64,000 bases of DNA. It comes from Cyclobacteriaceae bacterium. Lineage in GTDB: Bacteria; Bacteroidota; Bacteroidia; Cytophagales; Cyclobacteriaceae. The stretch's first letter is position 1; each line of letters begins with the position of its first letter. Both the position numbers and the translations under genes were made by a program. The notes under the pieces are model-generated. The model was not told the origin of the DNA, ran no database searches, and saw only the letters and a list, made by a program, of their open reading frames with translations. The stretch lies in the NCBI GenBank assembly GCA_028278585.1, contig JANQEC010000023.1, positions 23,947 to 87,946 on the forward strand. The letters are read 5' to 3'. Shown here one piece after another: positions 340 to 14,620 of this stretch.

Positions 340-576
340 ATCAAACGGAAACATTTCATACAAGTATATAATTCACGACTAACGCTTGAAGGAATATACT
401 TCACCAAGATAGAAACCATCAACCACTTCGTAGGTGTAATGCCAGGGTCACATCGCAGGTATTGTGTCAACAACCTATCCTTCCACCCTTGGATATATAA
501 ATATTGGTTCCAGAGAATAGACAAGATATACTATAGTGGCATAAAAGGACTAAGTGATAGTTTAACATTAGAATGA
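340..576 (+). CDS. small paralogue-array protein with apparent ATC start
   Basis: 78 open codons 5 nt after AGGAGG (329-334); C-terminus YYSGIKGLSDSL matches array members (YHIRGIKGTDNAL, YYAGVLGLDNDL). Confidence 0.55.
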   Translation: MKRKHFIQVYNSRLTLEGIYFTKIETINHFVGVMPGSHRRYCVNNLSFHPWIYKYWFQRIDKIYYSGIKGLSDSLTLE

Positions 577-622
577 CACATTAACATTCCTTATGTTAGT
601 GTGCAGAAATTGAGTTAATGTT

Positions 623-883
623 TTGGAGAAGAAAATGTCAGGTAGTAGTTCATTAATGGCCAAGAAATCAATCTGGACCTCCATGCACGGCATAGACTGT
701 TTTCAGTTTGATGGAACAGATGCATACAGGTATCTATGGTTTTATTTATTTGATTCGATATTTCGCCCACAACCAGCACTTACTTTGTTCGATAGGTTAA
801 TACAATATGAATCTATCAAACAATATTGTATAGAGTACGAGTTGACGATTAAAGATTTTAACCAACTATGGGTTTGGAAATGA
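623..883 (+). CDS. small paralogue-array protein
   Basis: Tyr/Trp-rich small ORF, ATGA-coupled to the next gene. Confidence 0.6.
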   Translation: MEKKMSGSSSLMAKKSIWTSMHGIDCFQFDGTDAYRYLWFYLFDSIFRPQPALTLFDRLIQYESIKQYCIEYELTIKDFNQLWVWK

Positions 884-1146
884 TACAGAACTGGACAGAT
901 CATCAAATCTATGCTGACATCAATGCACATTTCGAACATCATGTAATCGGCTATTGGCATATTAAAGATAAACTGGATTGCGACTATTGTGATTATTGGT
1001 TAAGGAAGCCGGGTGATGGGCCAGTAATGTATACTTCTCATCGTCCTTGTGGCGCTTGGATATACAACAACAATGTAATCGGCTTTCGAAACTGTGAATG
1101 GTATGTATACTATAGGGTAGTTGATTTGATTGGTAGGTTGTTATGA
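880..1146 (+). CDS. small paralogue-array protein (CxxC)
   Basis: CDYC motif, C-terminal YYRVVDLIGRLL; ATGA overlaps at both ends. Confidence 0.7.
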   Translation: MIQNWTDHQIYADINAHFEHHVIGYWHIKDKLDCDYCDYWLRKPGDGPVMYTSHRPCGAWIYNNNVIGFRNCEWYVYYRVVDLIGRLL

Positions 1147-1385
1147 TGAATGCAAAAAGTATAGGTCGTTGGATAGAGATGAAAGAGAAGATGACTGTGA
1201 CTAACTACTATTTACTGGTATATACAATGTCATCGTTGGTTTTGAAAGATCCAAATGGCGCTGCAGGGAAGATGTGTAATGCAATGAAACTTGGGAAGGG
1301 AACTGCTGGGTGCAATTGTAATCATTGTATGGTGAGATTTTGGGAACATTCATACCATATCAATAAAGGAATGTATCTGCTATGA
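1143..1385 (+). CDS. small paralogue-array protein
   Basis: YY motif, CNCNHC, ATGA coupling. Confidence 0.7.
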   Translation: MMNAKSIGRWIEMKEKMTVTNYYLLVYTMSSLVLKDPNGAAGKMCNAMKLGKGTAGCNCNHCMVRFWEHSYHINKGMYLL

Positions 1386-1624
1386 CCCAATGGGAAATGA
1401 ATTGTTACTATGATTGGATAGAACGGATAAACCATAGATACAGCCATGGATATGGGTATGGATTTTTAGAAAAACCATATCGCCGCTCGGATTGTATGGA
1501 TTGCGGCGGTTGTCCCGATATTGAAGAAGGTGATGAAGATATAATAACCGTATCTTGTACGAATTTGATCCATCTATACCAGATAGAATGCATTAACGAT
1601 AACTTTTGGCAAGAGGGACAATGA
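1382..1624 (+). CDS. small paralogue-array protein (CxxC)
   Basis: CYYDWI...CMDCGGC; ATGA coupling. Confidence 0.7.
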   Translation: MTQWEMNCYYDWIERINHRYSHGYGYGFLEKPYRRSDCMDCGGCPDIEEGDEDIITVSCTNLIHLYQIECINDNFWQEGQ

Positions 1625-1836
1625 AATATTTTCTTGATGTATTAGTTAATTTCGATTGGGCATTTAATCCTGAACGGTCAAAGAAAGAATATAGGATGAC
1701 CAATTTGGATGCGGTTTCGTGTATGTATTATTGTATGCCATTTCAATTGGTTGGCAAATGTAAATTAACTCCTGTGGGTAGATGTAACCAGATAGTATAT
1801 CCGCACGTGCTGAAATTGATCAATGAGGGATTCTAA
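1621..1836 (+). CDS. small paralogue-array protein
   Basis: CMYYC...CNQIVYPHVLKLIN; similar to 10780..11076. Confidence 0.7.
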   Translation: MKYFLDVLVNFDWAFNPERSKKEYRMTNLDAVSCMYYCMPFQLVGKCKLTPVGRCNQIVYPHVLKLINEGF

Positions 1837-1841
1837 ATAAC

Positions 1842-2066
1842 ATGACTACATCTTGGGTATCATATAACGTTAGAATGATCAATTGGTCGTTGGAAGAAAT
1901 CGGGGAACCTATACCACAACCTCCTAATCAGATCATGTCTTGCGGCGATTGTGAAGAGATGTGGGATCAAAAAGATCCATGTGAGATGTTTGATAGTATG
2001 GATTGTGACCGAGTTTATTTGGTCGGAGTTCTAAATACATTTTCTTATTCGTGTGTGTTAGTATGA
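1842..2066 (+). CDS. small paralogue-array protein (CxxC)
   Basis: MSCGDCEE...C...C pattern. Confidence 0.7.
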   Translation: MTTSWVSYNVRMINWSLEEIGEPIPQPPNQIMSCGDCEEMWDQKDPCEMFDSMDCDRVYLVGVLNTFSYSCVLV

Positions 2067-2344
2067 ATAAACAAAGAAAAAGAAAATCAAGACCATTACA
2101 CAAGAGTATCCCCACGCCGCTAACTTCATGTTACGCCGCAGTAAACGTATCATGGCACACGAAACAGAAATACTATAGGATAGTTGAGTATATTAACACA
2201 TCATTCAAACGGGTGCCCAAGTATTGGGCCCGGAAGGCAATCCCGTTATGGAAACTTGTGTATACAACAGCGCAACTTAATAAAATCCACATAGACCAAT
2301 TAGTATCTACAGAACTGTATATTGATTTAGAGGACATAGGGTGA
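2063..2344 (+). CDS. small paralogue-array protein
   Basis: YYRIVEYIN motif; ATGA coupling. Confidence 0.6.
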   Translation: MNKQRKRKSRPLHKSIPTPLTSCYAAVNVSWHTKQKYYRIVEYINTSFKRVPKYWARKAIPLWKLVYTTAQLNKIHIDQLVSTELYIDLEDIG

Positions 2345-2370
2345 AACTGGCATACATATGGTAGAGATAC

Positions 2371-2592
2371 ATGACACTTAAAGAATATTGGAAACAGGTC
2401 GATAAGCTAAGAGTTTTATCCGCGGACAATGGGAAGTGGGAGTATCTAAACATGCTTCAATTGTCTTACGTTATAAGTTGGCGACAATGTAAGCCAATAG
2501 AGTATATGAGATGGGGAGATGGAAGATCCGCAGAATATGTTGATTTGGTATACTGGATAGATGAAGACCTTGAACTAATTTCAGGATCCTGA
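2371..2592 (+). CDS. small paralogue-array protein (MTxxEY subfamily)
   Basis: aligns by eye with 7791..8033 and 10067..10285. Confidence 0.75.
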   Translation: MTLKEYWKQVDKLRVLSADNGKWEYLNMLQLSYVISWRQCKPIEYMRWGDGRSAEYVDLVYWIDEDLELISGS

Positions 2593-2630
2593 AAATAGTT
2601 ATTGACAGGTTTGCCTTCATAATCTATATT
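2579..2630 (+). promoter_or_regulatory. sigma70-like early promoter with upstream GGATCC-GAAAA element
   Basis: TTGACA (2602)-17 nt-TATATT (2625); palindrome TTTCAGGATCCTGAAA at 2579-2594. Confidence 0.8.
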
Positions 2631-2655
2631 AAATAAAAACAAAAAGGAAGATAGT

Positions 2656-2826
2656 ATGAGTTTTGGCAAAGTAATCGTAGAAGTAGTGAAATTGGCATGC
2701 ATGTTTTGTTTGGGTGTATGTCTGTATCATATAGTTACGGAGCCGGAAGTAACCACAAGAATGAAATTCGTTATTGTGGGTGGCATAAACCTTGTGGGGT
2801 TTTTGATATTGGATGGGAGAAAGTAA
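2656..2826 (+). CDS. small membrane protein
   Basis: 56-aa ORF after AAGGA RBS, two hydrophobic segments. Confidence 0.6.
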   Translation: MSFGKVIVEVVKLACMFCLGVCLYHIVTEPEVTTRMKFVIVGGINLVGFLILDGRK

Positions 2827-2827
2827 A

Positions 2828-3016
2828 ATGAAACTAAAGAAAGGCTTGCAGGTTTCATCTGATGATCCTTGGTATGATTTATCTGATGGTGGCTATTTGA
2901 ACCCAAGAGAGATGTGTGAATCTCCCGAAGATGCCCAAAGAGTGATTGATGCTATTGCTGTGGTTGAGGATTTCATTGAATCTTGTAGAATACAAATTGA
3001 AGATTTCATAAGGTAG
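2828..3016 (+). CDS. hypothetical protein
   Basis: ORF with GGAG RBS. Confidence 0.65.
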   Translation: MKLKKGLQVSSDDPWYDLSDGGYLNPREMCESPEDAQRVIDAIAVVEDFIESCRIQIEDFIR

Positions 3017-3034
3017 GAGAGGGGAAATAACTAT

Positions 3035-3277
3035 ATGATCACCATTAAAGAAACAACTGGCACCAATTCAGATGGCGCAGGTACATACGAAATCGAAGTG
3101 TCAAAGGATGGAAAGAAAGTTGCTGGGTTCTCCGCATGGCCTTTATACGAATGTCCCGAAGATGCTACACTTGAACGTGACATGGGATTTGCTTATGATG
3201 CTATCGAATTTTTCAAGCTTGGATATGAAGCAGGAAAGAACGGAGAGGAAATAGTTTTTAAGGAAGTGGAAGAATGA
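3035..3277 (+). CDS. hypothetical protein
   Basis: ORF with strong RBS. Confidence 0.7.
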   Translation: MITIKETTGTNSDGAGTYEIEVSKDGKKVAGFSAWPLYECPEDATLERDMGFAYDAIEFFKLGYEAGKNGEEIVFKEVEE

Positions 3278-3528
3278 AAACAATGGAATCATCTTTAAAA
3301 GTATACATAGTTAAACATGGCACACATTGGTTGTTGGATGGTAACAAAGCAAAATGTCCTGAATGCAATAGAACAGATTGGGTTCATTGTATAAGTGACG
3401 GAGCCCACGAAAACCCGGAAGAACAAGTATACAAAGCAACGTTCGAATGTAAAACATGTCTGTGCAAATTTATAGTGTGCAAACCCCTGAAAGAGATCCA
3501 GAAAAAATCAATTGACACATACGCATAA
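3274..3528 (+). CDS. zinc-ribbon-like hypothetical protein
   Basis: CPEC...CKTC. Confidence 0.65.
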   Translation: MKTMESSLKVYIVKHGTHWLLDGNKAKCPECNRTDWVHCISDGAHENPEEQVYKATFECKTCLCKFIVCKPLKEIQKKSIDTYA

Positions 3529-3540
3529 TAAACGTATATT
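3495..3540 (+). promoter_or_regulatory. sigma70-like early promoter
   Basis: GATCCAGAAAA, TTGACA (3512)-17 nt-TATATT (3535). Confidence 0.8.
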
Positions 3541-3809
3541 TAATAATAGACAACACAAAACATAAAGTGTTTGGAGGTGAGAAGTTTATGTGGCCGCAGT
3601 AATTTAAAGGGCCTATTAAAAACAGAATACAAAATATAAATAATAGTAATAAGATATATTAAAAAGATGAAGTACGGTGGGTTGCCGAATCGGCCCAAAA
3701 TTATAAGATAAGAAATTATAAGAAAGCCGAAGTGGGGGCAACGGATTGCCCTATCAACATCCAAGATGGATTAGACTATTTAAGATAATGTAGAAAGATT
3801 TGGGGAACC

Positions 3810-3843
3810 GGGAAGGACAATATTGTTCTTCCCTTTTCCTTTA
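3810..3843 (+). terminator. intrinsic terminator
   Basis: GGGAAGGACAA-TA-TTGTTCTTCCC hairpin followed by TTTTCCTTT. Confidence 0.65.
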
Positions 3844-3884
3844 TATGGGGCGCTACCCTGGCGCCATAGGGAGAGTTAAACCTA

Positions 3885-3948
3885 TTTAACCGTTTAACCA
3901 GATTCTTACCGATTTTTCTTGACACAGATCCGTGAATAATGATATATT
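3885..3948 (+). promoter_or_regulatory. early promoter module (copy 1 of an inverted pair)
   Basis: TTTAACCGTTTAACCAGA-13 nt-TTCTTGACACAGATCCGTGA; TATATT 18 nt after the -35; same blocks at 24923-24973 on the minus strand. Confidence 0.8.
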
Positions 3949-3989
3949 AGTAGTATAAGAAAAAAGAGAAAAATCGAAAGGATCGTCAA

Positions 3990-4673
3990 ATGTTGTCTTG
4001 TGTATCAAAAAACTCCAAAACCGAATACTCTGTTGATTTCACTTCCAACTGCCCCAAACGCAGAGAAGGAAAACCTTGTTCCTATTGTTACGTTGAATGT
4101 GCCCGGAATATGGGTTTCAACGCTAAGAAGGTTTTCGATTACGTTCCCTACAATAACGAAATTTCCCGTTTCACCCAAAAGAAAATTTCCATGTTGAATG
4201 CCGCCGGTGGTATTCGACTTTTTTCTTTTGGTGACTACATGCCCGAACATTACAATGACGTTCTTCAATTTTTGGATGATTGTGAAATCCAAGGTTTGAA
4301 GGTTAAGGTTATCACCAAGGTTATCGACTTTGTTGTGAAGTTCCATGATCACCCGGCAATTAAAGTGATCAACATTTCCATCGACAATGTTGGTGATGGT
4401 GTAGGTTGGTATGTCGCTGGTGCCTTCAAAAAGTATTCGAAGGTCCGTGTCCGTTGTGTTGTTCTCAAAGATGAAGATGTGGATGCCTTCACCGATTGCC
4501 GTGTTGGGAATCTGGTTGACGTTTTCACTTTCAATCATGGTCGTGGTTTGAAAAAACTTGGATACAAGATGTATTCCAAGAAAGACGTTAAGGAATGGAA
4601 CAAGAAACTGAATGGCAAAGTATGTTGTTCCACCGGGAAATGTGCCACCTGTAACCTCAAATGTGCTCAGTAA
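3990..4673 (+). CDS. Gp88-like / radical-SAM-related Fe-S protein
   Basis: C-x8-CxxCY, IRLFSFGD, C-terminal CCxxxxCxxCxxxC. Confidence 0.6.
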   Translation: MLSCVSKNSKTEYSVDFTSNCPKRREGKPCSYCYVECARNMGFNAKKVFDYVPYNNEISRFTQKKISMLNAAGGIRLFSFGDYMPEHYNDVLQFLDDCEIQGLKVKVITKVIDFVVKFHDHPAIKVINISIDNVGDGVGWYVAGAFKKYSKVRVRCVVLKDEDVDAFTDCRVGNLVDVFTFNHGRGLKKLGYKMYSKKDVKEWNKKLNGKVCCSTGKCATCNLKCAQ

Positions 4674-4696
4674 TTTAGGAAAAGGAAATGAATACA

Positions 4697-4831
4697 ATGT
4701 TTCAAAAAATAAAATGTTTTTTCGGTTTCCATACCAAAGACCCCAAACAGGGAAGCTGGTATTGTGCCTCTTATAGGGCCGGCTATTCCTACTGTAAATT
4801 CTGTAATGCCATCATTTGGGAAGATCGTTAG
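4697..4831 (+). CDS. small CxxGxH zinc-finger-like protein
   Basis: MFQKIKCFFGFH...CKFC; AAGGA..AATACAATG start context. Confidence 0.6.
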   Translation: MFQKIKCFFGFHTKDPKQGSWYCASYRAGYSYCKFCNAIIWEDR

Positions 4832-4846
4832 AAAGGAATCAATACA

Positions 4847-5074
4847 ATGTCACAAGCTAAAGTAGTCAATTCACAAAAGTTTTTCGAGTACATGGCAAAG
4901 AAAGCCAAGACAAGTACCATCAGTATCCGTGCCTTTACTGGTACTCATCCCAGCCGTGGAGAATACACCCAGTTGTTTTTTGAGAACGGCAGAGGAACGG
5001 ACATCGCCACTTGTGGTAATTACTCCGATGGAAAGACCCCTGACTATTACTTTGTTGGAAAACTTTGGTCCTAA
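4847..5074 (+). CDS. hypothetical protein
   Basis: AAAGGAATCAATACAATG start context. Confidence 0.7.
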   Translation: MSQAKVVNSQKFFEYMAKKAKTSTISIRAFTGTHPSRGEYTQLFFENGRGTDIATCGNYSDGKTPDYYFVGKLWS

Positions 5075-5090
5075 TAAGAAAGGCAATACA

Positions 5091-5381
5091 ATGAAACTCA
5101 ACTCCTTCGCAGAACTGAAATCCTTCGTGGAACTCGACAACCACATCAAACAGCTCAATGCTGATGCTGACCGGCAGATGGCCGAGCAGCCCGGGCTGTG
5201 GGTTTCACATCTCATGCCTGCGGAGAAGTGGGTTGAAAACTACGGTATTGATACCGTGGAAAAATTCGAACACCAAATGTTGTTCGAATCATATTCGAAT
5301 GTTTACAAGGATACCTTCGGTGTCCGCCCTCGTGGCAAGGTAACTGTCGCTGAGATGAAATCTTTTTTGGAAAGGGCATAA
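5091..5381 (+). CDS. conserved phage hypothetical protein
   Basis: YKDxxGxRPR motif; AAAGGCAATACAATG start. Confidence 0.7.
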   Translation: MKLNSFAELKSFVELDNHIKQLNADADRQMAEQPGLWVSHLMPAEKWVENYGIDTVEKFEHQMLFESYSNVYKDTFGVRPRGKVTVAEMKSFLERA

Positions 5382-5383
5382 CA

Positions 5384-5734
5384 ATGAAAATTCGTATCCG
5401 TGAAGATGCCAGAAAATACTACATTGCCAGCTCAATGGGAACTTTTATCAATTGGGATTGGGCGAATACAATGGAGCAGGTACAAGGAATGGTCCTTGAG
5501 GTAGAAACAGAATACCTGTTTAAGAATCAGTACAATACCGTCCCTGTGCCCGGAGTCTCCGACAATGGACTTCGTATCATGGACAATATGGTATCGGAAG
5601 TCATAGACGATGAAAGGGAAGGAAAAGCACGTTGTAACTGGTGTGGTAAAACCGTACCCGATGCCCCCATGTGTTTCAAGTGTGGTCGGCAAGGATACAT
5701 GGAATCATTCAGTAACCGTTATAGGAGAGCATAA
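5384..5734 (+). CDS. hypothetical protein with C-terminal Zn ribbon
   Basis: CNWC...CFKC. Confidence 0.7.
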   Translation: MKIRIREDARKYYIASSMGTFINWDWANTMEQVQGMVLEVETEYLFKNQYNTVPVPGVSDNGLRIMDNMVSEVIDDEREGKARCNWCGKTVPDAPMCFKCGRQGYMESFSNRYRRA

Positions 5735-5737
5735 AAC

Positions 5738-6166: not shown

Positions 6167-6170
6167 AACA

Positions 6171-7070: not shown

Positions 7071-7292
7071 ATGAAACATTACTCTAAATACATGCATAAA
7101 ATATTTGGTCATGGGTATGCAATTTCTCGCAACAGATTTCTTTTTCCAAGTAACCATAACACTATAGTAGATTGTAACTATTGCGATAATCTGCCAGGAA
7201 GGCCGAGATTTTCCGATGACTTTTGTAATGGTCATTGCTGTAACAATGCATATCCATACATAATAGGTTTGGTTGATAGGATATTAGAATGA
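7071..7292 (+). CDS. small paralogue-array protein (CxxC)
   Basis: CNYC...CC..AYPYIIGLVDRILE. Confidence 0.65.
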   Translation: MKHYSKYMHKIFGHGYAISRNRFLFPSNHNTIVDCNYCDNLPGRPRFSDDFCNGHCCNNAYPYIIGLVDRILE

Positions 7293-7546
7293 ACTCCAAT
7301 CAAAGCCCATGTATTACAGATTGCAATAAGACCTGTGAATATTATTGTAGAGTAAAGTACATGTACAATTTTCTGATTAGGTGTGAATTGGATGTTATAG
7401 ATTGCCTATTCTGCGAAGATTGCCAGAACATATTAGACGATGAGCCCTGTTTCTATGCTAGTTGGTGGGCCAGCCGAGGCTCTTGCTGGGAATATTATTA
7501 TCCACATTCAATACAGGTAATGCAGGATAAGGTGGACTTGTTATGA
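7289..7546 (+). CDS. small paralogue-array protein (YYCRV subfamily)
   Basis: EYYCRVKYMYNFLIRC...YYPHSIQVMQDKVDLL. Confidence 0.8.
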   Translation: MNSNQSPCITDCNKTCEYYCRVKYMYNFLIRCELDVIDCLFCEDCQNILDDEPCFYASWWASRGSCWEYYYPHSIQVMQDKVDLL

Positions 7547-7794
7547 GAAAATACCATAGCCCATGTGACACAAGTTGTAACAGGATTGGAACCGAATACT
7601 ATTGCAGGGTGAAATACATGTACACATTTTTAATTAGATGTGATGTTGGCCAGGCGGTGTATATGTTATGTCGTGTTTGTAAACAGATGACAAACTCCGC
7701 ATATGGCAGTTGTAAAGAAAACTTAGGTACGTGCCGTTCGTTTTATTATCCCCATTCAATACGGGCAATGCAAGATAGGTTGGAATTGATATGA
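7543..7794 (+). CDS. small paralogue-array protein (YYCRV subfamily)
   Basis: EYYCRVKYMYTFLIRC...YYPHSIRAMQDRLELI; tandem duplicate of the previous gene. Confidence 0.8.
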   Translation: MRKYHSPCDTSCNRIGTEYYCRVKYMYTFLIRCDVGQAVYMLCRVCKQMTNSAYGSCKENLGTCRSFYYPHSIRAMQDRLELI

Positions 7795-8033
7795 CCCGAA
7801 GAGAATACATCAAACAAGGTCGCCGGATTATATCTTGTGATGGCCCCATAAAATGGCATTACCTTGATATGTTGTTACTGAATTATTATTTAACTTGGCG
7901 CGGATGTAGAAAAGTTGAATACGGTACAAATATGCCAAAGGTGTCGGACAACTATTTCGCCTTGTTAGAATGGGTTGATCATTTTCTGGATCCAGAAAGC
8001 ATGCTGCCCCGATCAGCTCGTTTAACCGATTAA
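7791..8033 (+). CDS. small paralogue-array protein (MTxxEY subfamily)
   Basis: aligns with 2371..2592. Confidence 0.75.
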   Translation: MTRREYIKQGRRIISCDGPIKWHYLDMLLLNYYLTWRGCRKVEYGTNMPKVSDNYFALLEWVDHFLDPESMLPRSARLTD

Positions 8034-8163: not shown

Positions 8164-8427
8164 TTATCTGAGAATTTTGTCAATCTGAGCTACATGCCAA
8201 TAGAATCCTGCATCTTCACGCATGATTGGTGGGAATGGATTGTAAAGATTGCCTGGCAATATCGGGGGCCAGGCAGTTCCCCATCGCTCATCATTGTTAT
8301 ATTGGTTATTCAATAGATTACTAAATTGTATCGCTTGCATTGCAGTACATATATCAGCGATAGGATTGTAGTCCTTTCCCTTCAGCAATTCATTTATCAG
8401 CCATATCCATAACGTTTGTGGTATCAT
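8164..8427 (-). CDS. small paralogue-array protein
   Basis: shares P.I.E.A..G..W and xDKxL with 8424..8657. Confidence 0.7.
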   Translation of the reverse strand: MIPQTLWIWLINELLKGKDYNPIADICTAMQAIQFSNLLNNQYNNDERWGTAWPPILPGNLYNPFPPIMREDAGFYWHVAQIDKILR

Positions 8428-8657
8428 AATAATTTATCCATTTCTACATATGAGCTATACAATACACCGGGGGCATTAACCAATATAGAGAAATACATGT
8501 TCCATAGATAACCAGTTCGTGCCTCTTCGGATATTAACGGCCCCGGTTTCCCATCAAATGTCAATAAACTATCTATTTTATCCCAGCCATAGCAGCCAAG
8601 AATTTGATTCAGTACATGTGCCCATGCTTCGTTATTGTCCATATTTGTATTTATCAT
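8424..8657 (-). CDS. small paralogue-array protein
   Basis: ATGA-coupled; ends MDKLL. Confidence 0.7.
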   Translation of the reverse strand: MINTNMDNNEAWAHVLNQILGCYGWDKIDSLLTFDGKPGPLISEEARTGYLWNMYFSILVNAPGVLYSSYVEMDKLL

Positions 8658-8857
8658 ATCAGTTCTATTCGCTCATCAAAGTTACTTATAGAAGATGAAT
8701 AGTATAATTCCTTACGAATTGTAACTATATCATATACCTGTTTAACGTATTCCCATGGCATTTCAGAAAGGGAATCATATTGGATCTTATCGTTAATAAG
8801 CCAGACATAGTTGTAGTATCTTGCTTCATGCCCCAATAGGTATAACGAATTAATCAT
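8654..8857 (-). CDS. small paralogue-array protein
   Basis: YYNYVWLIND...YYSSSISNFDERIELI. Confidence 0.7.
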   Translation of the reverse strand: MINSLYLLGHEARYYNYVWLINDKIQYDSLSEMPWEYVKQVYDIVTIRKELYYSSSISNFDERIELI

Positions 8858-9141
8858 AACAAGTCCGCCCGCTCAGAAAACAATCTTATTACCTGTCTTT
8901 GATGGAAATCCCTGCATGATATTCTTGTATCCTCATTAAATACATCAGTACAAGGTAGCTGCATAACATTTGTGGTCCCTTTGCCATATACCAAGTCCTC
9001 ACAATCAGCACAATCCATCACCTCTTGCGAATCAATACAATTATCGAATTTTTCCTTAAAGCCAAAATTCATCCACTTGATCTTACAGTAGTAGCAACCT
9101 TCCTCCATACCATAATATTCATCACATCCGCCCATTATCAT
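8854..9141 (-). CDS. small paralogue-array protein (YYC subfamily)
   Basis: CYYCKIKWM...CADC...ERADLL. Confidence 0.75.
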   Translation of the reverse strand: MIMGGCDEYYGMEEGCYYCKIKWMNFGFKEKFDNCIDSQEVMDCADCEDLVYGKGTTNVMQLPCTDVFNEDTRISCRDFHQRQVIRLFSERADLL

Positions 9142-9419
9142 ACCAGTTTCCCCAGCCTATCCAATGCCAAAATAACGTTGCCATGTCCATTCACCATACA
9201 GTATTCTACGCCTTCCCTAATCATACACCCATCCGCTTGTGCAGAACCCATCGAACAAAAGTGTTTACATTGTTTCCAATTCTTCAACTTGCCAGGGTGA
9301 CAGAAATCACAATTGCCACGATGCATTACCAACTGATCAAAAATATCAACTTCGTGATAGTAGTAGAGATCATCATATAGCATGCTCCCTGTAAACTGTG
9401 CCAATAATGGTCTTCTCAT
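9138..9419 (-). CDS. small paralogue-array protein
   Basis: YYYH..D, CxxC twice; similar to 10282..10551. Confidence 0.7.
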   Translation of the reverse strand: MRRPLLAQFTGSMLYDDLYYYHEVDIFDQLVMHRGNCDFCHPGKLKNWKQCKHFCSMGSAQADGCMIREGVEYCMVNGHGNVILALDRLGKLV

Positions 9420-9643
9420 AGTAGCTCCAAAGAATTGCCGAATTCACGCAAGGACAAAACATAATAATTTTCTTCGCAATTGGTATAAGTAGTGCAATCC
9501 AAATTAATAGAATGCGCGTTCATATAATAACAGTCATGGCATGTTATTGCCTTTTGCCACCAAGATGGTTCTCGCTGTACCGGATTAGCCCAGCTATCCA
9601 GATAACGGTAGTGGGTTTCTTTCTTATTTAACAGTTTCATCAT
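9416..9643 (-). CDS. small paralogue-array protein (CxxC)
   Basis: CHDC...CEENYY...SLELL. Confidence 0.75.
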   Translation of the reverse strand: MMKLLNKKETHYRYLDSWANPVQREPSWWQKAITCHDCYYMNAHSINLDCTTYTNCEENYYVLSLREFGNSLELL

Positions 9644-9900
9644 AGTAGCTGCAACCTCTCCTGCATTGCCTTCACATTGTATGGATAGTATCGAAAATTA
9701 CAAGCTACCAATGGCTCATGGTCACAATTAACATTCAATTCAATACAAACATCACATTCCAATAGTGATGACGATGTGCCTGCATACTTCATACATTTCC
9801 GACCCCACAACTCATTTATTCCTGGCGGTTCACAATACATGTGAGCAACTCTACAGTAGTAACAATTCCTGCCCATTTCAATACAATTTACTTTATTCAT
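9640..9900 (-). CDS. small paralogue-array protein (YYCRV subfamily)
   Basis: CYYCRVAHMY...YYPYNVKAMQERLQLL. Confidence 0.8.
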   Translation of the reverse strand: MNKVNCIEMGRNCYYCRVAHMYCEPPGINELWGRKCMKYAGTSSSLLECDVCIELNVNCDHEPLVACNFRYYPYNVKAMQERLQLL

Positions 9901-10070
9901 TCTAATTCCTCATCTATACCTATAATTGCAGAATAGAAGCAATCCTGTGGGTCACCGCAATCTCTCAACGGCCCGCCTTTATTTTGAAACATACAACAAG
10001 TACATACATTAATACTGCCATATTGTTCATTAGTGTTTGTCACTAGCTTGCCTCGCTCTTTGTTTTTCAT
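9897..10070 (-). CDS. small paralogue-array protein (57 aa, not in ORF track)
   Basis: MKNKE...CTCC...CFYSAIIGIDEELE; ATGA overlaps at both ends. Confidence 0.7.
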   Translation of the reverse strand: MKNKERGKLVTNTNEQYGSINVCTCCMFQNKGGPLRDCGDPQDCFYSAIIGIDEELE

Positions 10071-10285
10071 ACCAAATCCAACCTCTCAGTAAACCTTTCC
10101 AATACTATCATATGCATTTCATGCGCTATTGATGGTATCACATGCCGATTAGTTCTACTATAGTTAAGCTTTCTACCTCCACGCCAAGCCAGGTAATAAC
10201 TACATTGAACTATTTTGATATAATCCCAGTTAATATAGTATCCGTCCTTGCCGCCAATTATATCCCAATATTCTTTGCTTGTCAT
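10067..10285 (-). CDS. small paralogue-array protein (MTxxEY subfamily)
   Basis: MTSKEYW...YYLAWRG...ERLDLV. Confidence 0.75.
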   Translation of the reverse strand: MTSKEYWDIIGGKDGYYINWDYIKIVQCSYYLAWRGGRKLNYSRTNRHVIPSIAHEMHMIVLERFTERLDLV

Positions 10286-10551
10286 ACTAAGTCCAATTCC
10301 TTATCCACAGACGAAACAACTATCGGGTGTAGAGTGGCAATACAATGTTCTGCGAAAGGTCGCAAATCACATTCATGTATCAAAGAGGAAGCCGTTAAAC
10401 AACGTGTTTTGCATTGTTCCCCGTTCGGTATAATCAACGGACAACTGCCATCATAGTTCAGTAGTAAATCCACATCAAAAACCATATAGTAGTAATAGTA
10501 GGCAACATGTTCTGCATCTGTAGCAATAATCATTCCACAAAGCTCCCGCAC
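10282..10551 (-). CDS. small paralogue-array protein
   Basis: YYYYY, Cys-rich, ends VDKELDLV. Confidence 0.7.
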   Translation of the reverse strand: MRELCGMIIATDAEHVAYYYYYMVFDVDLLLNYDGSCPLIIPNGEQCKTRCLTASSLIHECDLRPFAEHCIATLHPIVVSSVDKELDLV

Positions 10552-10775
10552 ATCTTGACCACATACATATGCACATACTCCTCACATACCAGTATATTCG
10601 GCGGATTAGTTTCGCCAAATAAACAGCCCAACAGCAAGTCCTCTGCATCACAATATTCACAATCCTTCCTATTGCTTCTCTGCACTCCGGTATACTCACA
10701 CTCAAAGTAGAAGTCACTAAGCCAAACCTGCCAGTAGTATTCATTGGCAGCCGTTTTAATAGGTCGAATACACAT
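10530..10775 (-). CDS. small paralogue-array protein (CxxC)
   Basis: EYYWQV...CEYC. Confidence 0.7.
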   Translation of the reverse strand: MCIRPIKTAANEYYWQVWLSDFYFECEYTGVQRSNRKDCEYCDAEDLLLGCLFGETNPPNILVCEEYVHMYVVKMCGSFVE

Positions 10776-10779
10776 CAGT

Positions 10780-11076
10780 TCACAACTTCCTATTGATCCA
10801 TTTTAACAAGCAAGGGTATATTATTTCATTACACACCGTACCATCAGTACACGGCATTCTTCGCGACCTGTTACAATGTAGATCAAACCCGAGGGGAATA
10901 CAGTAATACGAACAGGTATGCAGGTCTAACGCCTCGAAACGCTCAGTGCGATGTTTCCTCTTACGTCCCGGTCCCATGTCTCTATTAATAGCCTTGACGT
11001 AGACGCGGTATATCATTTCCCTTGTGCGCTCTGGAAAATCATTCAAATTCATCTCAAAATTCCCTATCCACGGCAT
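10780..11076 (-). CDS. small paralogue-array protein
   Basis: CSYYC...CNEIIYPCLLKWIN; similar to 1621..1836. Confidence 0.7.
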   Translation of the reverse strand: MPWIGNFEMNLNDFPERTREMIYRVYVKAINRDMGPGRKRKHRTERFEALDLHTCSYYCIPLGFDLHCNRSRRMPCTDGTVCNEIIYPCLLKWINRKL

Positions 11077-11290
11077 TCACAATACAGGGATATACTTTGT
11101 TCGGACACATCAATGTATCTTGTGTATCATTCACACAAAGTCTGCCCGTAACACTTCGGCAATAGTCACAGCCGAGGGTTTCAATAGGAGTTTTGAATAG
11201 CCATACACAAGACCCGCCATCCATAAATCTATTGGCAAGAGTAACACGAATACGATAGCCGATTGCTTCTATTTCGTTGAACTTTCTCAT
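11054..11290 (-). CDS. small paralogue-array protein (CxxC)
   Basis: CDYC...CPNKVYPCIVNAVD. Confidence 0.7.
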   Translation of the reverse strand: MRKFNEIEAIGYRIRVTLANRFMDGGSCVWLFKTPIETLGCDYCRSVTGRLCVNDTQDTLMCPNKVYPCIVNAVDREF

Positions 11291-11291
11291 C

Positions 11292-11558
11292 TCAGTCCAA
11301 GCCCTTGCCGATTTTATTTACAAGGTGCGGGTATAGAAACAGTTTGCATGCCATTGGATTTTTGTAGTCCACGCACATCCATGGCACCTTCGGTAGTTTC
11401 TCTTTCACGCAAAAACAACATCGAATTTCGGTTTCTACACACAATTTGGCACCGCGGTATCTCCTATATTGCACCCTTGCGGACACTTGGCGGACCCTTG
11501 CGTAATACTCAATGCCTATCAACCACGGTGTCTGGCTGCCAATCTCTCTCCCTCTCAC
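11292..11558 (-). CDS. small paralogue-array protein (CxxC)
   Basis: EYYARV...CCFC...CKLFLYPHLVNKI. Confidence 0.7.
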   Translation of the reverse strand: MRGREIGSQTPWLIGIEYYARVRQVSARVQYRRYRGAKLCVETEIRCCFCVKEKLPKVPWMCVDYKNPMACKLFLYPHLVNKIGKGLD

Positions 11559-11592
11559 TGCACACCACCGTCCATATTCTTTTCCTGGCTTT

Positions 11593-11799
11593 TCAGATAC
11601 TTAGACATCTTTCTATCCCTTTCATACCTATTATATGTAGTAAATTTTTGTCGTGATCCGTTAATGTTAGAGTTCTACAAAGCATTCCCATATCATTTGC
11701 ACATAGGTAACAACCCCTACAATATATTGGCTCTATTGGAATAGAATTGTTTGACCATTCCAACCATTTGTTTATATAGTAGGTTGCTTTATAGTGCAT
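11593..11799 (-). CDS. small paralogue-array protein (GIKG subfamily)
   Basis: YYINKW...CRGC...GMKGIE. Confidence 0.7.
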   Translation of the reverse strand: MHYKATYYINKWLEWSNNSIPIEPIYCRGCYLCANDMGMLCRTLTLTDHDKNLLHIIGMKGIERCLSI

Positions 11800-12016
11800 T
11801 GTCTGTTCCTTTTATACCTCTAATATGGTAACATATCGAGTTTGATTCATAAGTAGTATCCACAAGTAGGCTACAACGATCTAATAGTATGCATGTCTGG
11901 CATGTAATACCGTCTATTACCCAATACTTAGAATACATAGATTTAGCAGGACCACTATATGCCACTATCCCGTTGAAAATCTTATTCATTAGGTAATATG
12001 TGTTAAGCGAGGTCAT
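11789..12016 (-). CDS. small paralogue-array protein (GIKG subfamily)
   Basis: YYLMNK...CQTC...GIKGTDNAL. Confidence 0.7.
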   Translation of the reverse strand: MTSLNTYYLMNKIFNGIVAYSGPAKSMYSKYWVIDGITCQTCILLDRCSLLVDTTYESNSICYHIRGIKGTDNAL

Positions 12017-12278
12017 TATCCAATCCTAAGACACCTGCATAGTAGCAGTTGTAGTCAACGTAGCATATTGTATTGGTTGCTATACAGTTGCTACATATAT
12101 GTTCGAAAACCCCATTCATTTCCATTTTCTTCTTATTATGTTTTACCATCTGGTGCAATGATTGTTGGATTGTTATTCCTGTATCATCACCTATGGCACG
12201 GATATGTTTATAGTACCTTAGTTTGAGTAGTATGTTTTCTCTATCAAAATAGATGGGATAGCATTCATCGTAATTCAT
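12003..12278 (-). CDS. small paralogue-array protein
   Basis: YYKHI...CSNC...CYYAGVLGLDNDL. Confidence 0.7.
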   Translation of the reverse strand: MNYDECYPIYFDRENILLKLRYYKHIRAIGDDTGITIQQSLHQMVKHNKKKMEMNGVFEHICSNCIATNTICYVDYNCYYAGVLGLDNDLA

Positions 12279-12360
12279 TGTCTATTCCCTTTATTCCAAA
12301 CCAATCTCCATTGCAGGTGAATGATTGTATATGCGTATTGACCGGCGTTGACCGTGCCAT
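12265..12360 (-). pseudogene. truncated remnant of an array paralogue
   Basis: 31-codon ORF retaining only the C-terminus CNGDWFGIKGIDNELR. Confidence 0.45.
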
Positions 12361-12390
12361 TGTTTGGCGGCGTAGTGTATTTAATTGGTT

Positions 12391-12615
12391 TCATGTTAGA
12401 TATGTGTCTATTACCTTCAATACAGGATGATATACCGAATGACTACTACACATGAAATCCCCCGCACATGTGCCGAATACATTAATTTCTGCACAATACT
12501 CACATGACATTTCTTGTTCAGGATCGTCTATTACTCTTTGTATCTTCAGTCCCTTGAACATTGCATCTATCCATTTGAATGTGTAGTATTCATCTGGCAT
12601 TACTCTTAATCTCAT
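12391..12615 (-). CDS. small paralogue-array protein (CxxC)
   Basis: EYYTFKWID...CEYC...YHPVLKVIDTYL. Confidence 0.75.
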   Translation of the reverse strand: MRLRVMPDEYYTFKWIDAMFKGLKIQRVIDDPEQEMSCEYCAEINVFGTCAGDFMCSSHSVYHPVLKVIDTYLT

Positions 12616-12842
12616 ATCAGTTCCAATAGCTTATCTATATCGTTTAGTCCAGTATACATACAGAAAGTATACAACGCACCATCATTCAGATTCCACGGGC
12701 AATCGTTTGCTTCATACTCACAACCATTACAGGCATATAGACCGCTCGGCCAGTTAGTGAATCGACTATCTGGTTTCCCTGTAAAGGTATGGGCATGGTC
12801 TATATACCTTATGTTGAAGTATTGTCTGGTATTAGTCGGCAT
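12612..12842 (-). CDS. small paralogue-array protein (CxxC)
   Basis: CNGC...DCP...FCMYTGLNDIDKLLELI; paralogue of the next gene. Confidence 0.75.
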   Translation of the reverse strand: MPTNTRQYFNIRYIDHAHTFTGKPDSRFTNWPSGLYACNGCEYEANDCPWNLNDGALYTFCMYTGLNDIDKLLELI

Positions 12843-13060
12843 AGGTTATCTATATCTTGTAAGGCATTGTATATACAAAACTCTACTGTCATACTATGTG
12901 GATTGAATATGTTTGCACTTGGGCAGTCATCTTCATACACACAATGGAAACATGTTTCTGTTGTATCCCATATCAGAAACCGTGAATCCTTTTTCTTGGC
13001 GTCAAATACCATTAACCAATTAAGGTTACGGTATGGATGATATTCTAAATAATGGTACAT
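12809..13060 (-). CDS. small paralogue-array protein (CxxC)
   Basis: CFHC...DCP...FCIYNALQDIDNL. Confidence 0.75.
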   Translation of the reverse strand: MYHYLEYHPYRNLNWLMVFDAKKKDSRFLIWDTTETCFHCVYEDDCPSANIFNPHSMTVEFCIYNALQDIDNLCRLIPDNTST

Positions 13061-13263
13061 ATGTCCCTGTCTAAATCTTTGAATCTTCTATAGTATGATG
13101 GGGCATGTATTACCCATCCATGTTCTGTTGTACTCCACCGCATTATACTGATGTTGACGCCGTATTCCGGTTGGCACACATTGTTTATCATGCCGGGTTG
13201 CCGGCGTAGTGATATGGAATTATCTAACCACTTGATACGCGTGTAGTAGTTGTTATAGGACAT
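13045..13263 (-). CDS. small paralogue-array protein
   Basis: YYTRIKWLD...YYRRFKDLDRDI. Confidence 0.7.
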   Translation of the reverse strand: MSYNNYYTRIKWLDNSISLRRQPGMINNVCQPEYGVNISIMRWSTTEHGWVIHAPSYYRRFKDLDRDICTII

Positions 13264-13507
13264 AACTTACTTCTTCCAATCCAATTAGGTGGCAATGGTC
13301 TTCCATTGTCAGTTTAAACCCATGATATGTATTACAATCTACCTTCCTGGCTTTCTCACAATTCCAACATGGTATTCGTTTCTTTGTAGATATGAATGGT
13401 TTCTTGTTCGTATCTTCTTGCCATAGTATACACTTATCCATATGTATAATAGGTTCGAATAGTACATGTTTCCAGAATAGATCGCCGAACAACTCACTAC
13501 CGTACAT
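13253..13507 (-). CDS. small paralogue-array protein (CxxC)
   Basis: CWNC...HCHLIGLEEV. Confidence 0.7.
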   Translation of the reverse strand: MYGSELFGDLFWKHVLFEPIIHMDKCILWQEDTNKKPFISTKKRIPCWNCEKARKVDCNTYHGFKLTMEDHCHLIGLEEVSYVL

Positions 13508-13679
13508 CTTTATTCACTCCTACCAAGGAAGACCAGTAACACCAATGATCGAAATCTTCTGCAGTCATGTTCTGGCAACCCGGGCCACACTTGTTTTCAA
13601 AGTATGGACAACCATAACAGGAATGGTATGCATTATTCCGGTCTGCTGAGTAATCATGTAAGTTGTTCTGTTTCATCAT
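13497..13679 (-). CDS. small paralogue-array protein (CxxC)
   Basis: CYGC...CYWSSLVGVNKDV. Confidence 0.7.
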   Translation of the reverse strand: MMKQNNLHDYSADRNNAYHSCYGCPYFENKCGPGCQNMTAEDFDHWCYWSSLVGVNKDVR

Positions 13680-13944
13680 TTATACTTCTCACTTGGTAAT
13701 TGTAACAAACCTTTGATATTCTATCTTCCATTGGCCTAGCACCTTGTACGGCAGCGTGGCACGCGGAAGAGTTGTAACAGTCTGCACATTTGATGAGAAA
13801 CCAATCTCTTTGGAACACATCTTTTATATAGTTGTTCTCTCCATCGAAATGTAGATAGTCACTATCAATGGTGGAGTATATCGTGTATCTCCAATTACTT
13901 ACTGTAATTGTGAGTGGCTTAGTCTTAACAAAATAGCTCTTCAT
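13654..13944 (-). CDS. small paralogue-array protein (CxxC)
   Basis: CADC...CYNYQVRSIND. Confidence 0.7.
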   Translation of the reverse strand: MKSYFVKTKPLTITVSNWRYTIYSTIDSDYLHFDGENNYIKDVFQRDWFLIKCADCYNSSACHAAVQGARPMEDRISKVCYNYQVRSINDETEQLT

Positions 13945-14159
13945 GAATCCCATTTCCATTCCTTGTCTTGCATCTTTATCCAATCGTAATATTTCCACTC
14001 CCGGCCATCTCTCAATTCTCGTTGTGGATACTTCTTACAATTGTAACCGCATGTTCCTACCCAAAGGTCGAAGTCATAATAGTTTTGATATGCTACTCGT
14101 TTTATGAACTCTGCATATCGAAAGTCTAATTTATCTTCGTAGTTATAGTGTGTACTCAT
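13941..14159 (-). CDS. small paralogue-array protein
   Basis: Tyr-rich; YYDWIKMQDK. Confidence 0.7.
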   Translation of the reverse strand: MSTHYNYEDKLDFRYAEFIKRVAYQNYYDFDLWVGTCGYNCKKYPQRELRDGREWKYYDWIKMQDKEWKWDS

Positions 14160-14373
14160 CTATAAACCCAACGTTGTAACCGAACGATTCTCTTTTGTAT
14201 TGATTGAATACGGAATTCAAGTATTGATCTGAATAGAGTAGTTTCTGCCAACCACCAATAGGAGACACTTCTGGTTTAGATCGGTCTATAATATGCACAT
14301 ATCGTCTGTAGGGACTGTCATTTATGGCATCGTATATCCATCTGATCTGTTCATAGTATGTTAAGGGCTTCAT
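14143..14373 (-). CDS. small paralogue-array protein
   Basis: YYEQIRWI...VGFIDEY. Confidence 0.65.
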   Translation of the reverse strand: MKPLTYYEQIRWIYDAINDSPYRRYVHIIDRSKPEVSPIGGWQKLLYSDQYLNSVFNQYKRESFGYNVGFIDEYTL

Positions 14374-14605
14374 CAAATTTCTCATAGTCTGGTGATGGTA
14401 AACAGAAGGCAAACTCTGGTTTCCTTCCTACCAAAGACAACACCAATGTTTGTCTCGCCTCATAATACTTCTTGGGCACATATAAACGGTATCCTATTGT
14501 TTCTTTTATCAATGTCCATCCACCAGCAAAGGCAAGGTCAGCAACCAATAAGTGATTGAAATACACACCTTCCCAAATCCGTATTTTTTCTGTCTCTGAT
14601 TTCAT
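14351..14605 (-). CDS. small protein, first gene of the minus-strand array
   Basis: ends KFDEALNIL. Confidence 0.6.
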   Translation of the reverse strand: MKSETEKIRIWEGVYFNHLLVADLAFAGGWTLIKETIGYRLYVPKKYYEARQTLVLSLVGRKPEFAFCLPSPDYEKFDEALNIL

Positions 14606-14620
14606 ACTTCACACCAAAAC

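What the first reader, a model, noticed from the sequence alone, without database searches (positions are those of the whole stretch)
340..14605. Array of ~41 hyperdiverse small Tyr/Cys-rich paralogues sharing one scaffold
Seen: about 41 ORFs, mostly 57-98 aa, lie in three blocks (340-2592 +, 7071-8033 +, 8164-14605 -). They recurrently show an N-terminal YY..(I/V)..(I/L)(D/N) segment, a central CxxC with further Cys, and a C-terminal (C)..Y(Y/P)..hh..h(D/N)..L.L helix, while the middles are unalignable. Subfamilies occur on both strands: YYCRVKYMY...YYPHSI..MQD (7289, 7543, 9640, 8854), MTxxEY...WR (2371, 7791, 10067), CxYYC...IxYP (1621, 10780), GIKG (340, 11593, 11789) and DCP...FC.Y (12612, 12809). 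Inference: this is a massively expanded family with constant termini and a variable metal-binding core, resembling a repertoire of interchangeable binding modules (anti-defence, host takeover or partners of one hub protein). I do not recognise the family.
Basis: partly seen in the sequence, partly recalled or inferred. Interest (0 to 1): 0.85.

Follow-up and report, generated by a model that had tools for sequence, protein, structure and literature searches.

The report
Phage array of zinc-loop microproteins
An uncultured large phage carries about 49 back-to-back genes, most of them very old, diverged copies of one small protein found nowhere else, in which two predicted short helices flank a variable, likely zinc-holding middle, and they likely serve as a panel of binders against host proteins, though no target is known.

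Summary
The window is part of a 110-kb T4-like phage contig binned with a bacterium. It has 40 overlapping 57-98-aa ORFs in the three stated blocks, and 9 more lie just upstream of the window. They are rich in Tyr, Cys and Trp. A held-out-subfamily profile test links 40 of 49 members against shuffles, versus 3 of 44 control ORFs. A stricter test against real phage ORFs links 35 of 49. The scaffold is a Tyr-led helix, a variable CxxC...C...C core and a Tyr-led helix. Paralogues are old (synonymous sites saturated) yet intact. No outside homologue was found in any search.

Corrections: a third of members lack the Cys core, the MTxxEY group is only weakly tied in, GIKG is not a subfamily, and cores are alignable within subfamilies.

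The kind of thing is known: phage G has about 35 zinc-ribbon copies, and phages G and 121Q have arrays of more than 30 genes. A related phage holds an unrelated 39-member array beside the same ligase gene. Best reading (0.4): a cytoplasmic binder panel for host takeover or counter-defence. Fold, metal binding, expression and targets are unproven.

The parts
301..339 (+). Hairpin that buries the AGGAGG ribosome site (329-334) of the first gene of the block
   Evidence: -23.5 kcal/mol, z -6.5, 0 of 200 shuffles
340..576 (+). Member, 78 aa from an ATC start, 1 Cys
   Evidence: held-out 0/100 shuffles; start
656..883 (+). Array ORF, 75 aa, membership not shown
   Evidence: 15/100
880..1146 (+). 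Member, 88 aa, 4 Cys
   Evidence: 0/100
1143..1385 (+). Array ORF, 80 aa, 4 Cys, membership not shown
   Evidence: 90/100
1382..1624 (+). Member, 80 aa, 6 Cys
   Evidence: 2/100
1621..1836 (+). Member, 71 aa, pair of 10780-11076
   Evidence: Z 15.9; 0/100
1842..2066 (+). Member, 74 aa, 5 Cys
   Evidence: 0/100
2063..2344 (+). Weak member, 93 aa
   Evidence: 4/100; misses the stricter test
2371..2592 (+). MTxxEY group, 73 aa, weak tie to scaffold
   Evidence: Z 21.8 to 7791; 2/100; misses the stricter test
7071..7292 (+). Member, 73 aa, pair of 11054-11290
   Evidence: Z 9.7; 0/100
7289..7546 (+). YYCRV group, 85 aa, 10 Cys
   Evidence: Z 25.7 to 7543; 0/100
7543..7794 (+). YYCRV group, 83 aa, 8 Cys
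   Evidence: 0/100; low-confidence model
7791..8033 (+). MTxxEY group, 80 aa
   Evidence: 3/100; misses the stricter test
8164..8427 (-). Member, 87 aa, 1 Cys; last gene of the minus block
   Evidence: 1/100
8424..8657 (-). Weak member, 77 aa, 1 Cys
   Evidence: 4/100; misses the stricter test
8654..8857 (-). Member, 67 aa, no Cys, both end motifs kept
   Evidence: 0/100; top 1%
8854..9141 (-). YYCRV group, 95 aa, 8 Cys
   Evidence: Z 10.4 to 7289
9138..9419 (-). Member, 93 aa, pair of 10282-10551
   Evidence: Z 13.5; 4/100
9416..9643 (-). Member, 75 aa, best held-out score
   Evidence: 30.4 bits, 0/100
9640..9900 (-). YYCRV group, 86 aa, 9 Cys
   Evidence: Z 10.0 to 7543
9897..10070 (-). Array ORF, 57 aa, lacks the N-terminal helix motif; pair of 12003-12278
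   Evidence: Z 7.5; held-out 42/100
10067..10285 (-). MTxxEY group, 72 aa
   Evidence: Z 11.5 to 2371; 1/100
10282..10551 (-). Member, 89 aa, 6 Cys
   Evidence: 0/100
10530..10775 (-). Member, 81 aa, 7 Cys
   Evidence: 1/100
10780..11076 (-). Member, 98 aa, pair of 1621
   Evidence: 3/100
11054..11290 (-). Member, 78 aa, 6 Cys
   Evidence: 0/100
11292..11558 (-). Member, 88 aa, 6 Cys
   Evidence: 0/100
11555..11608 (-). 17-codon ORF bridging two members (stop overlaps the next start)
   Evidence: read from sequence
11593..11799 (-). Member, 68 aa, 5 Cys
   Evidence: 3/100
11789..12016 (-). Member, 75 aa, 4 Cys
   Evidence: 0/100
12003..12278 (-). Probable member, 91 aa, 5 Cys
   Evidence: 6/100; Z 7.5 to 9897
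12275..12394 (-). 39-codon bridging ORF; another frame here carries a family-like C-terminal motif, likely a decayed member
   Evidence: six-frame read
12391..12615 (-). Member, 74 aa, 4 Cys
   Evidence: 0/100; model with helices 10-21 and 62-73
12612..12842 (-). Member, 76 aa, pair of 12809
   Evidence: Z 14.0; 0/100
12809..13060 (-). Member, 83 aa, 5 Cys
   Evidence: 5/100
13045..13263 (-). Member, 72 aa, 2 Cys
   Evidence: 3/100
13253..13507 (-). Member, 84 aa, 5 Cys
   Evidence: 0/100
13497..13679 (-). Member, 60 aa, 5 Cys
   Evidence: 1/100
13654..13944 (-). Member, 96 aa, 4 Cys
   Evidence: 0/100
13941..14159 (-). Array ORF, 72 aa, Tyr/Trp-rich, membership not shown
   Evidence: 41/100
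14143..14385 (-). Member, 80 aa, no Cys
   Evidence: 0/100
14351..14605 (-). First ORF of the minus block, 84 aa, membership not shown
   Evidence: 72/100
14609..14659 (-). 16-codon leader ORF running through a terminator-like hairpin (about 14624-14654) with a U-rich tail, ending 3 nt before the block
   Evidence: sequence; fold z -2.0, 9 of 200 shuffles; weak
15084..15091 (-). T4-type late promoter match TATAAATA about 0.5 kb upstream of the minus block
   Evidence: consensus match only
15913..15941 (-). Sigma-70-type early promoter of the phage's repeated type, upstream of the minus block
3919..3948 (+). Nearest early-type promoter upstream of the 7071-8033 block

Best explanation
The phage carries about 49 small, mostly overlapping genes, most of them old and diverged copies of one scaffold, whose products are predicted to be cytoplasmic proteins with two short helices around a variable, likely zinc-bound core, and which likely act as a panel of binders against host defence or housekeeping proteins during infection. 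Shown: the array, its overlaps, the shared scaffold in 35-40 of 49 ORFs, saturated synonymous divergence with intact frames, higher conservation at the ends than in the core, and no homologue elsewhere. Inferred: the family grew by tandem duplication plus moves to the other strand; overlapping stop and start codons let each block be translated as a chain; four Cys bind zinc and stiffen the variable loops; the Tyr-rich end helices hold the fold or dock on a common surface while the core sets specificity. Untested: expression, timing, metal, fold and targets.
For: Held-out profile tests. End motifs exceed shuffles: N 26 of 49 against a mean of 6.6, C 14 of 49 against 3.4 (motif defined after seeing alignments). 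In 9 related pairs identity is 42% at each end, 26% in the core and 76% at core Cys; the closest pair has 13/14, 3/32 and 10/16. Four Cys columns are kept in 14-15 of 15 aligned members. In 8 pairs pS is 0.69-0.89 and pN 0.31-0.48, so the copies are old and still coding. Neighbours are more alike than random pairs (Z 1.69 against 0.64, p 0.0026), and 10 of 16 pairs with Z above 6 join opposite strands. No hydrophobic segment (best 19-mer 1.2), pI 4.1-10, and none of the 9 contig proteins with a capsid-targeting-like start is in the array (that motif is recalled from T4). Both models put helices at the two end motifs. The related complete phage G001 has an unrelated 39-member small-protein family in two blocks beside the same ligase gene and tRNA cluster, so this region can hold replaceable repertoires. 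T4 amplifies a counter-defence gene by recombination (PMC9391042, abstract).
Against: No target, partner or functional homologue was found. Both models are low confidence (mean pLDDT 57.6 and 50.7, pTM 0.24 and 0.30), so packing of the helices is not shown. Thirteen of 40 window members have two Cys or fewer. Nine of 49 fail the shuffle test and 14 of 49 the stricter one, and the MTxxEY group does not match the YYCRV group by profile. In two of the pairs the core is as conserved as the ends. The C-terminal helix is no more amphipathic than in controls (0.51 against 0.49). Saturation prevents any test of positive selection, and the pairs were picked on protein similarity, which lowers pN. Three of 4 relatives examined showed no comparable array, by low-sensitivity methods.
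Confidence: 0.4

Rival explanations
1. Accordion relics or headful filler: repeated duplication left many copies that are kept only loosely and mostly no longer do anything specific.
For: Tandem duplication signal; remnant ORFs at 12275-12394 and 11555-11608 show decay. Hua et al. read such arrays as a route of genome growth (PMC5646251, passage). The family is absent from the relatives searched.
Against: Synonymous sites are saturated while about 49 frames stay open, overlapped and motif-bearing; neutral filler would have broken up.
Confidence: 0.17
2. Adaptor panel: the constant helices dock on one hub (a host protease or polymerase, or a phage protein) and the variable cores bring different targets to it.
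For: Two short conserved helices with cores of about 13-63 residues, some without Cys, suit a docking role. Four orphan genes head the minus block.
Against: No hub was identified. The conserved positions are mostly hydrophobic and could be only a fold core. Part of the C-terminal motif overlaps the next gene's start signals, although 0 of 44 controls end this way against 17 of 49 members.
Confidence: 0.13
3. Zinc-binding nucleic-acid regulators or DNA-structuring proteins, as proposed for the phage G zinc-ribbon expansion.
For: CxxC...C...C core; Iyer et al. propose this role for phage G's roughly 35 copies (PMC7824862, passage).
Against: pI runs from 4.1 to 10, with 20 of 49 below 6; Lys is lower than in controls (5.7 against 10.0%); no similarity to the phage G proteins tested.
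Confidence: 0.12
4. Late, virion-associated proteins (T4 internal-protein-like cargo or surface decoration).
For: A late-promoter match at 15091; a ribosome-site-burying hairpin at 301-339 like those that silence T4 late genes on early transcripts (PMC3014915, passages); Ile ATA use of 138 of 250 against 571 of 2138, matched by a phage tRNA-Ile(TAT).
Against: No member has the capsid-targeting-like start seen in 9 other contig proteins. The late-like octamer inside the hairpin has 2 mismatches and missed the score cut. The blocks also lie downstream of early promoters, far from the structural genes.
Confidence: 0.1
5. Several unrelated small families that only share composition and gene-overlap signals.
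For: No profile match between the MTxxEY and YYCRV groups; 9-14 ORFs fail held-out tests; control pairs also reach Z above 4 (14 of 946).
Against: Held-out members without any Cys still score at 0 of 100 shuffles (8654, 14143), and 20 of 49 beat 99% of real phage ORFs. This rival can hold for a minority of ORFs only.
Confidence: 0.08

Closest known systems
Bacillus phage G gp32-type zinc-ribbon expansion (about 35 copies; YP_009015343.1; Iyer et al. 2021, PMC7824862, passage read)
   Same: Lineage-specific family of many small Cys-core proteins in a large phage. The copies seen (gp32, 34, 35, 37, 46) keep a constant C-terminal motif. gp32 matched only phage G among the phage records. Function untested.
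   Different: No detectable homology: best 5.0 bits for our profiles on 21 phage G proteins. Phage G copies are 92-118 aa with a CPIC-type first pair. Ours have a second conserved helix at the N-terminus and sit in dense overlapping blocks on both strands.
[quoted passage not shown] 2017, PMC5646251, passage read)
   Same: Large tandem arrays of paralogues in a big phage, explained by tandem duplication.
   Different: Described as very similar genes; ours are mostly 11-25% identical (closest pair 46%) with saturated synonymous sites. The 121Q genes were not fetched, but members had no PHROG hit below E 0.008 and one member had no hit in GenBank phages.
T4 tifA segmental amplification (Srikant et al. 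2022, PMC9391042, abstract and outline seen) and viral gene accordions (PMC13359090, passages)
   Same: Duplication of small counter-defence genes as the likely source of such arrays.
   Different: There the copies are recent, identical and raise dose; here they are ancient and diverged, and no counter-defence activity is shown.
FLxG-motif family of related phage G001 (IMGVR_UViG_3300017971_000002; found here, undescribed)
   Same: 39 small diverged paralogues in two opposed blocks next to the DNA ligase gene and tRNA cluster; no PHROG match in 32 scanned, and one weak Pfam match in one member.
   Different: Unrelated sequence (profile probability 0.2%), Cys-poor (1.8%), one central motif, no ATA bias.

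Membership tests
Lineage-specific small-gene expansions of jumbo phages (phage G / 121Q kind) | More than 30 paralogous small genes in tandem | tested here: met
   35-40 of 49 linked by held-out profiles; neighbours more alike than chance
Lineage-specific small-gene expansions of jumbo phages (phage G / 121Q kind) | Confined to one phage lineage | tested here: met
   Only self hits (13 of 13 self); 0 of 10 related viral records
Lineage-specific small-gene expansions of jumbo phages (phage G / 121Q kind) | Genome above 200 kb | tested here: inconclusive
   Contig is a 110,153-base fragment that ends at the capsid gene; relatives by terminase reach 202 and 224 kb
Phage G gp32 zinc-ribbon family | Sequence homology to gp32-type proteins | tested here: not met
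   Best 5.0 bits on 21 phage G proteins
Phage G gp32 zinc-ribbon family | Zinc bound by conserved Cys | not testable with these tools
   Four Cys columns conserved; binding not measured
T4 internal proteins | N-terminal capsid-targeting sequence (motif recalled) | tested here: not met
   9 other contig proteins match the pattern, no array member does
Any Pfam, PHROG, NCBIfam, PADLOC or PDB family | Significant profile match | tested here: not met
   Pfam best E 0.003 and PHROG best E 0.009 over 40 members; NCBIfam 0 of 2 members; PADLOC 0 of 29; PDB best E 0.017, a TAF3 domain, not accepted
Anti-defence proteins | Blocks a host defence system | not testable with these tools
   No assay; host unknown

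The most novel reading that the evidence does not exclude
The array is a genetically hard-wired adaptor library: about 45 proteins whose constant helices plug into one hub while zinc-braced variable cores each pick a different host target. Related phages fill the same genomic slot with an unrelated scaffold, so whole binder repertoires are swapped between lineages.
Probability: 0.13. Interest if true: 0.85.

Novelty: new variant of a known kind. Interest (0 to 1): 0.52.

Why it matters
Much of a large phage genome is small orphan genes. Here about 49 of them resolve, for the most part, into one old family kept under selection, and a relative has put an unrelated family of similar size in the same place. 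If these are binder panels, they are a ready list of candidate host-takeover and anti-defence proteins and a natural small scaffold with a variable loop. They would also give a testable reason why big phages keep such arrays. The phenomenon itself is known and recurs; what is new is this family and the replacement at one locus.

Tried and rejected
Homologue searches found only the phage's own proteins or nothing. Word-index search of 5.8 billion proteins with three alignments: all hits on the 110,153-base contig. Profile of 26 members against 1.84 billion representatives: 13 of 13 hits self. Viral contigs. Metagenome contigs. GenBank phages with one member. Ten related viral records. Six frames of the other 423 contigs: best E 0.12. 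ESM Atlas: best 0.89 to unnamed viral clusters for one member, a lead only, and no usable hit for another.

Structure: two AlphaFold2 models were low confidence, and a Foldseek search of the first gave nothing below E 3.5. A homodimer-with-zinc prediction returned no verdict. No member-with-hub complex was tested.

Expression: no RNA holder listed.

Other ideas: no Rfam match in 1-17000. No DNA repeat cassettes between genes; the longest repeats are paralogue pairs. A whole-block inverted duplication between the 340-2592 and minus blocks was not supported (2 of 7 positions). The convergent gap 8033-8164 folds no better than shuffles (z +1.2). The C-terminal motif as a mere by-product of start signals was rejected: 0 of 44 controls against 17 of 49. 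A survey of 80 ligase-flanking viral loci found no family of 3 or more, but the similar clustering grouped only 9 of our own members, so this shows little. Host assignment by RtcB was undecided (Bacteroidales and Desulfobacterota genomes at 57-63%).

Literature searches showed no paper on this family. Supplement S1.4 of PMC7824862, which lists the phage G family, was not viewed.

Full report
Setting. The window is G000:C220:23947-87946. C220 is 110,153 bases, the longest of 424 contigs. It encodes T4-like capsid, terminase, sheath, tube and baseplate proteins (read from translations; the capsid protein is 35-37% identical to cyanophage gp23), 26 tRNAs in the window, DNA ligase, RtcB and a sugar-modification cluster. 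Shine-Dalgarno motifs precede 37 of 52 long genes on this contig but 88 of 1945 on the other contigs, so the binned bacterium is probably not the host. One DNA run, labelled coral metagenome, holds the stretch and may be its source; its contig matches 1-16000 without differences.

The observation. Forty ORFs of 57-98 aa fill the three stated blocks, and nine more lie on the contig just upstream of the window. I left one 68-aa ORF inside that upstream run (contig 21533) and the 73-aa ORF at 78-299 in the control set. Of 45 same-strand neighbours 36 overlap, 21 by four bases. Tyr, Cys and Trp are about twice as frequent as in 44 other small ORFs. Ten-gene windows reach 0.164 Y+C+W here and at most 0.109 in four related phages.

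One family? Pairwise similarity is low: 16 of 1176 pairs exceed Z 6, with a mean Z of 0.64 against 0.11 for controls, and controls gave 5 of 946 above Z 6 with fewer shuffles. The better test held out each subfamily and built a profile from the remaining members with four or more Cys. Forty of 49 then scored at or below 5 of 100 shuffles, against 3 of 44 controls. Against 419 real small ORFs from related phages, 35 of 49 passed the 95th percentile and 20 the 99th. Two Cys-free members pass, so the signal is not only CxxC. The MTxxEY trio is a true subfamily but ties weakly to the rest (2 of 3 miss the stricter test; no profile-profile match). GIKG is not a subfamily.

Anatomy. The alignments show a Tyr-led N-terminal motif, CxxC, two further Cys and a Tyr-led C-terminal motif ending near D-x-x-L. 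A motif search gave 369 bits for the C-terminal motif against 171-211 in 8 shuffles, and 307 against 236-270 for the N-terminal one. In 9 related, non-independent pairs identity is 42% at each end, 26% in the core and 76% at core Cys. Two AlphaFold2 models place helices on both end motifs but are low confidence overall. No member has a membrane segment, and pI spans 4.1-10. Zinc binding is inferred from the Cys pattern only; 13 of 40 window members have two Cys or fewer.

History. In the 8 close pairs tested, synonymous differences are saturated (pS 0.69-0.89) and non-synonymous ones lower (pN 0.31-0.48). The copies are therefore old and have stayed coding, although choosing pairs on protein similarity lowers pN. 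Neighbours are more alike than random pairs (p 0.0026), and 10 of 16 strong pairs join opposite strands: tandem duplication plus relocation. Two short bridging ORFs, one with a family-like motif in another frame, look like decayed members that keep the overlap chain.

Expression signals. The phage has a repeated early promoter type and TATAAATA late promoters before structural genes. The minus block lies below both an early match (15941) and a late match (15091), behind a weak terminator-like hairpin crossed by a 16-codon ORF. The block at 340 opens with a strong hairpin that buries its ribosome site (z -6.5), as in T4 genes e, soc, 49 and I-TevI (PMC3014915, passages), but the late-like octamer in it has two mismatches. 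The array uses ATA for 138 of 250 Ile codons against 571 of 2138 elsewhere, and the phage has tRNA-Ile(TAT). Timing is unresolved.

Relatives. No homologue was found outside this contig. The phage is isolated: ligase 38-47% and terminase at most 64% to viral contigs. Ten terminase-related records lack the family; only two are near complete. I read four of them through. G001 has a different family with an FLxG motif: a profile of 32 members found 39 proteins, all in G001, among the five genomes. It lies in two opposed blocks from about 177 to 200 kb, just past the ligase gene at 170 kb and before the tRNA cluster, with two copies among the tRNAs. That matches the position of our array beside the ligase at 17383-18666. 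The two families are unrelated by profile. G004 has a six-gene tandem family; G002 and the G003 fragment showed nothing comparable, by a method that grouped only 9 of our own members.

What is known. Iyer et al. report an expansion of about 35 zinc-ribbon copies in Bacillus phage G and suggest transcription-factor or DNA-binding roles (PMC7824862, passages). [quoted passage not shown] The phage G copies I fetched show the same logic of a Cys core and a constant C-terminal motif, but no homology to ours. T4 amplifies tifA to beat a toxin-antitoxin defence (PMC9391042, abstract), and a review treats accordions as general in large viruses (PMC13359090, passages). Earlier notes of this scan describe several similar arrays in other phages; they are unchecked leads that show recurrence, not support for function. 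Searches showed no paper on this family.

Mechanism and verdict. The best reading is a panel of small cytoplasmic binders, with conserved helices as scaffold or docking surface and a likely zinc-braced variable core, used in host takeover or counter-defence (0.4). Rivals are loosely kept accordion relics (0.17), adaptors on one hub (0.13), nucleic-acid binders (0.12), virion cargo (0.1) and several unrelated families (0.08). The array and most of the family relationship are shown; fold, metal, expression and targets are not. It is a new family of a known, unexplained kind of phage array, with the added point that a relative holds an unrelated array in the same slot. Interest 0.52.

Noticed in passing
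contig C220 21340-23575 (L001:16841-19076), upstream of the window: Nine further array ORFs on the plus strand; 6 of 9 pass the held-out shuffle test.
   Followed up: yes
G001 about 177-200 kb and 4.6-5.4 kb (L145, L146, L136): Undescribed 39-member small-protein family with an FLxG motif in two opposed blocks beside the ligase gene; no PHROG match; not searched in the large protein databases.
   Followed up: partly
G004 151703-153772 (L154:15203-17272): Six tandem paralogues that all begin with the same motif ending in GFVSNSSS.
   Followed up: no
G003 79341-87200 and 120600-123600 (L172, L174): Six or seven tandem 380-510-aa genes with capsid-targeting-like starts, related to two genes of C220 (contig 102824-105958); also a run of short ORFs with similar starts at the record's end.
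   Followed up: no
window 2602, 3512, 3919 (+); 15941, 22127, 32624, 38298, 39012 (-): Repeated early promoter type, TTGAC-N17/18-TATATT, usually preceded by GATCC and an A run; a TTTAACC motif clusters near several of them and at 8021.
   Followed up: partly
window 39156-53650 (-): Large sugar-modification cluster: aminotransferases, GDP-fucose synthase, NeuB-like synthase, cytidylyltransferase, a radical SAM-like protein and, by my reading, sulfotransferases and glycosyltransferases.
   Followed up: partly
window 26893-38258 (-): 26 tRNA genes including tRNA-Ile(TAT), whose codon the array over-uses.
   Followed up: partly
window 17383-22081 (-): ATP-dependent DNA ligase, RtcB RNA ligase and a nucleotidyltransferase-like gene just upstream of the array.
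   Followed up: partly
window 28903-29427 and 30399-31184 (-): Stand-alone RelA/SpoT-type hydrolase-like protein with a capsid-targeting-like start, and an MBL-fold hydrolase; both are candidate counter-defence enzymes.
   Followed up: no
window 58280-60703 (-): 807-aa structural protein with four or five internal repeats of about 50 aa.
   Followed up: no
contig C220 2035-4504 (+): AAA+ ATPase and vWA-like gene pair of the MoxR kind (my reading; shared with G001).
   Followed up: no
whole assembly: The phage contig uses Shine-Dalgarno motifs (37 of 52 long genes) while the other contigs hardly do (88 of 1945), so it is probably mis-binned.
   Followed up: partly
G001 9212-9763 and 16766-16841 (L136): A tmRNA gene and a tRNA with a CTA anticodon in the related phage.
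   Followed up: no
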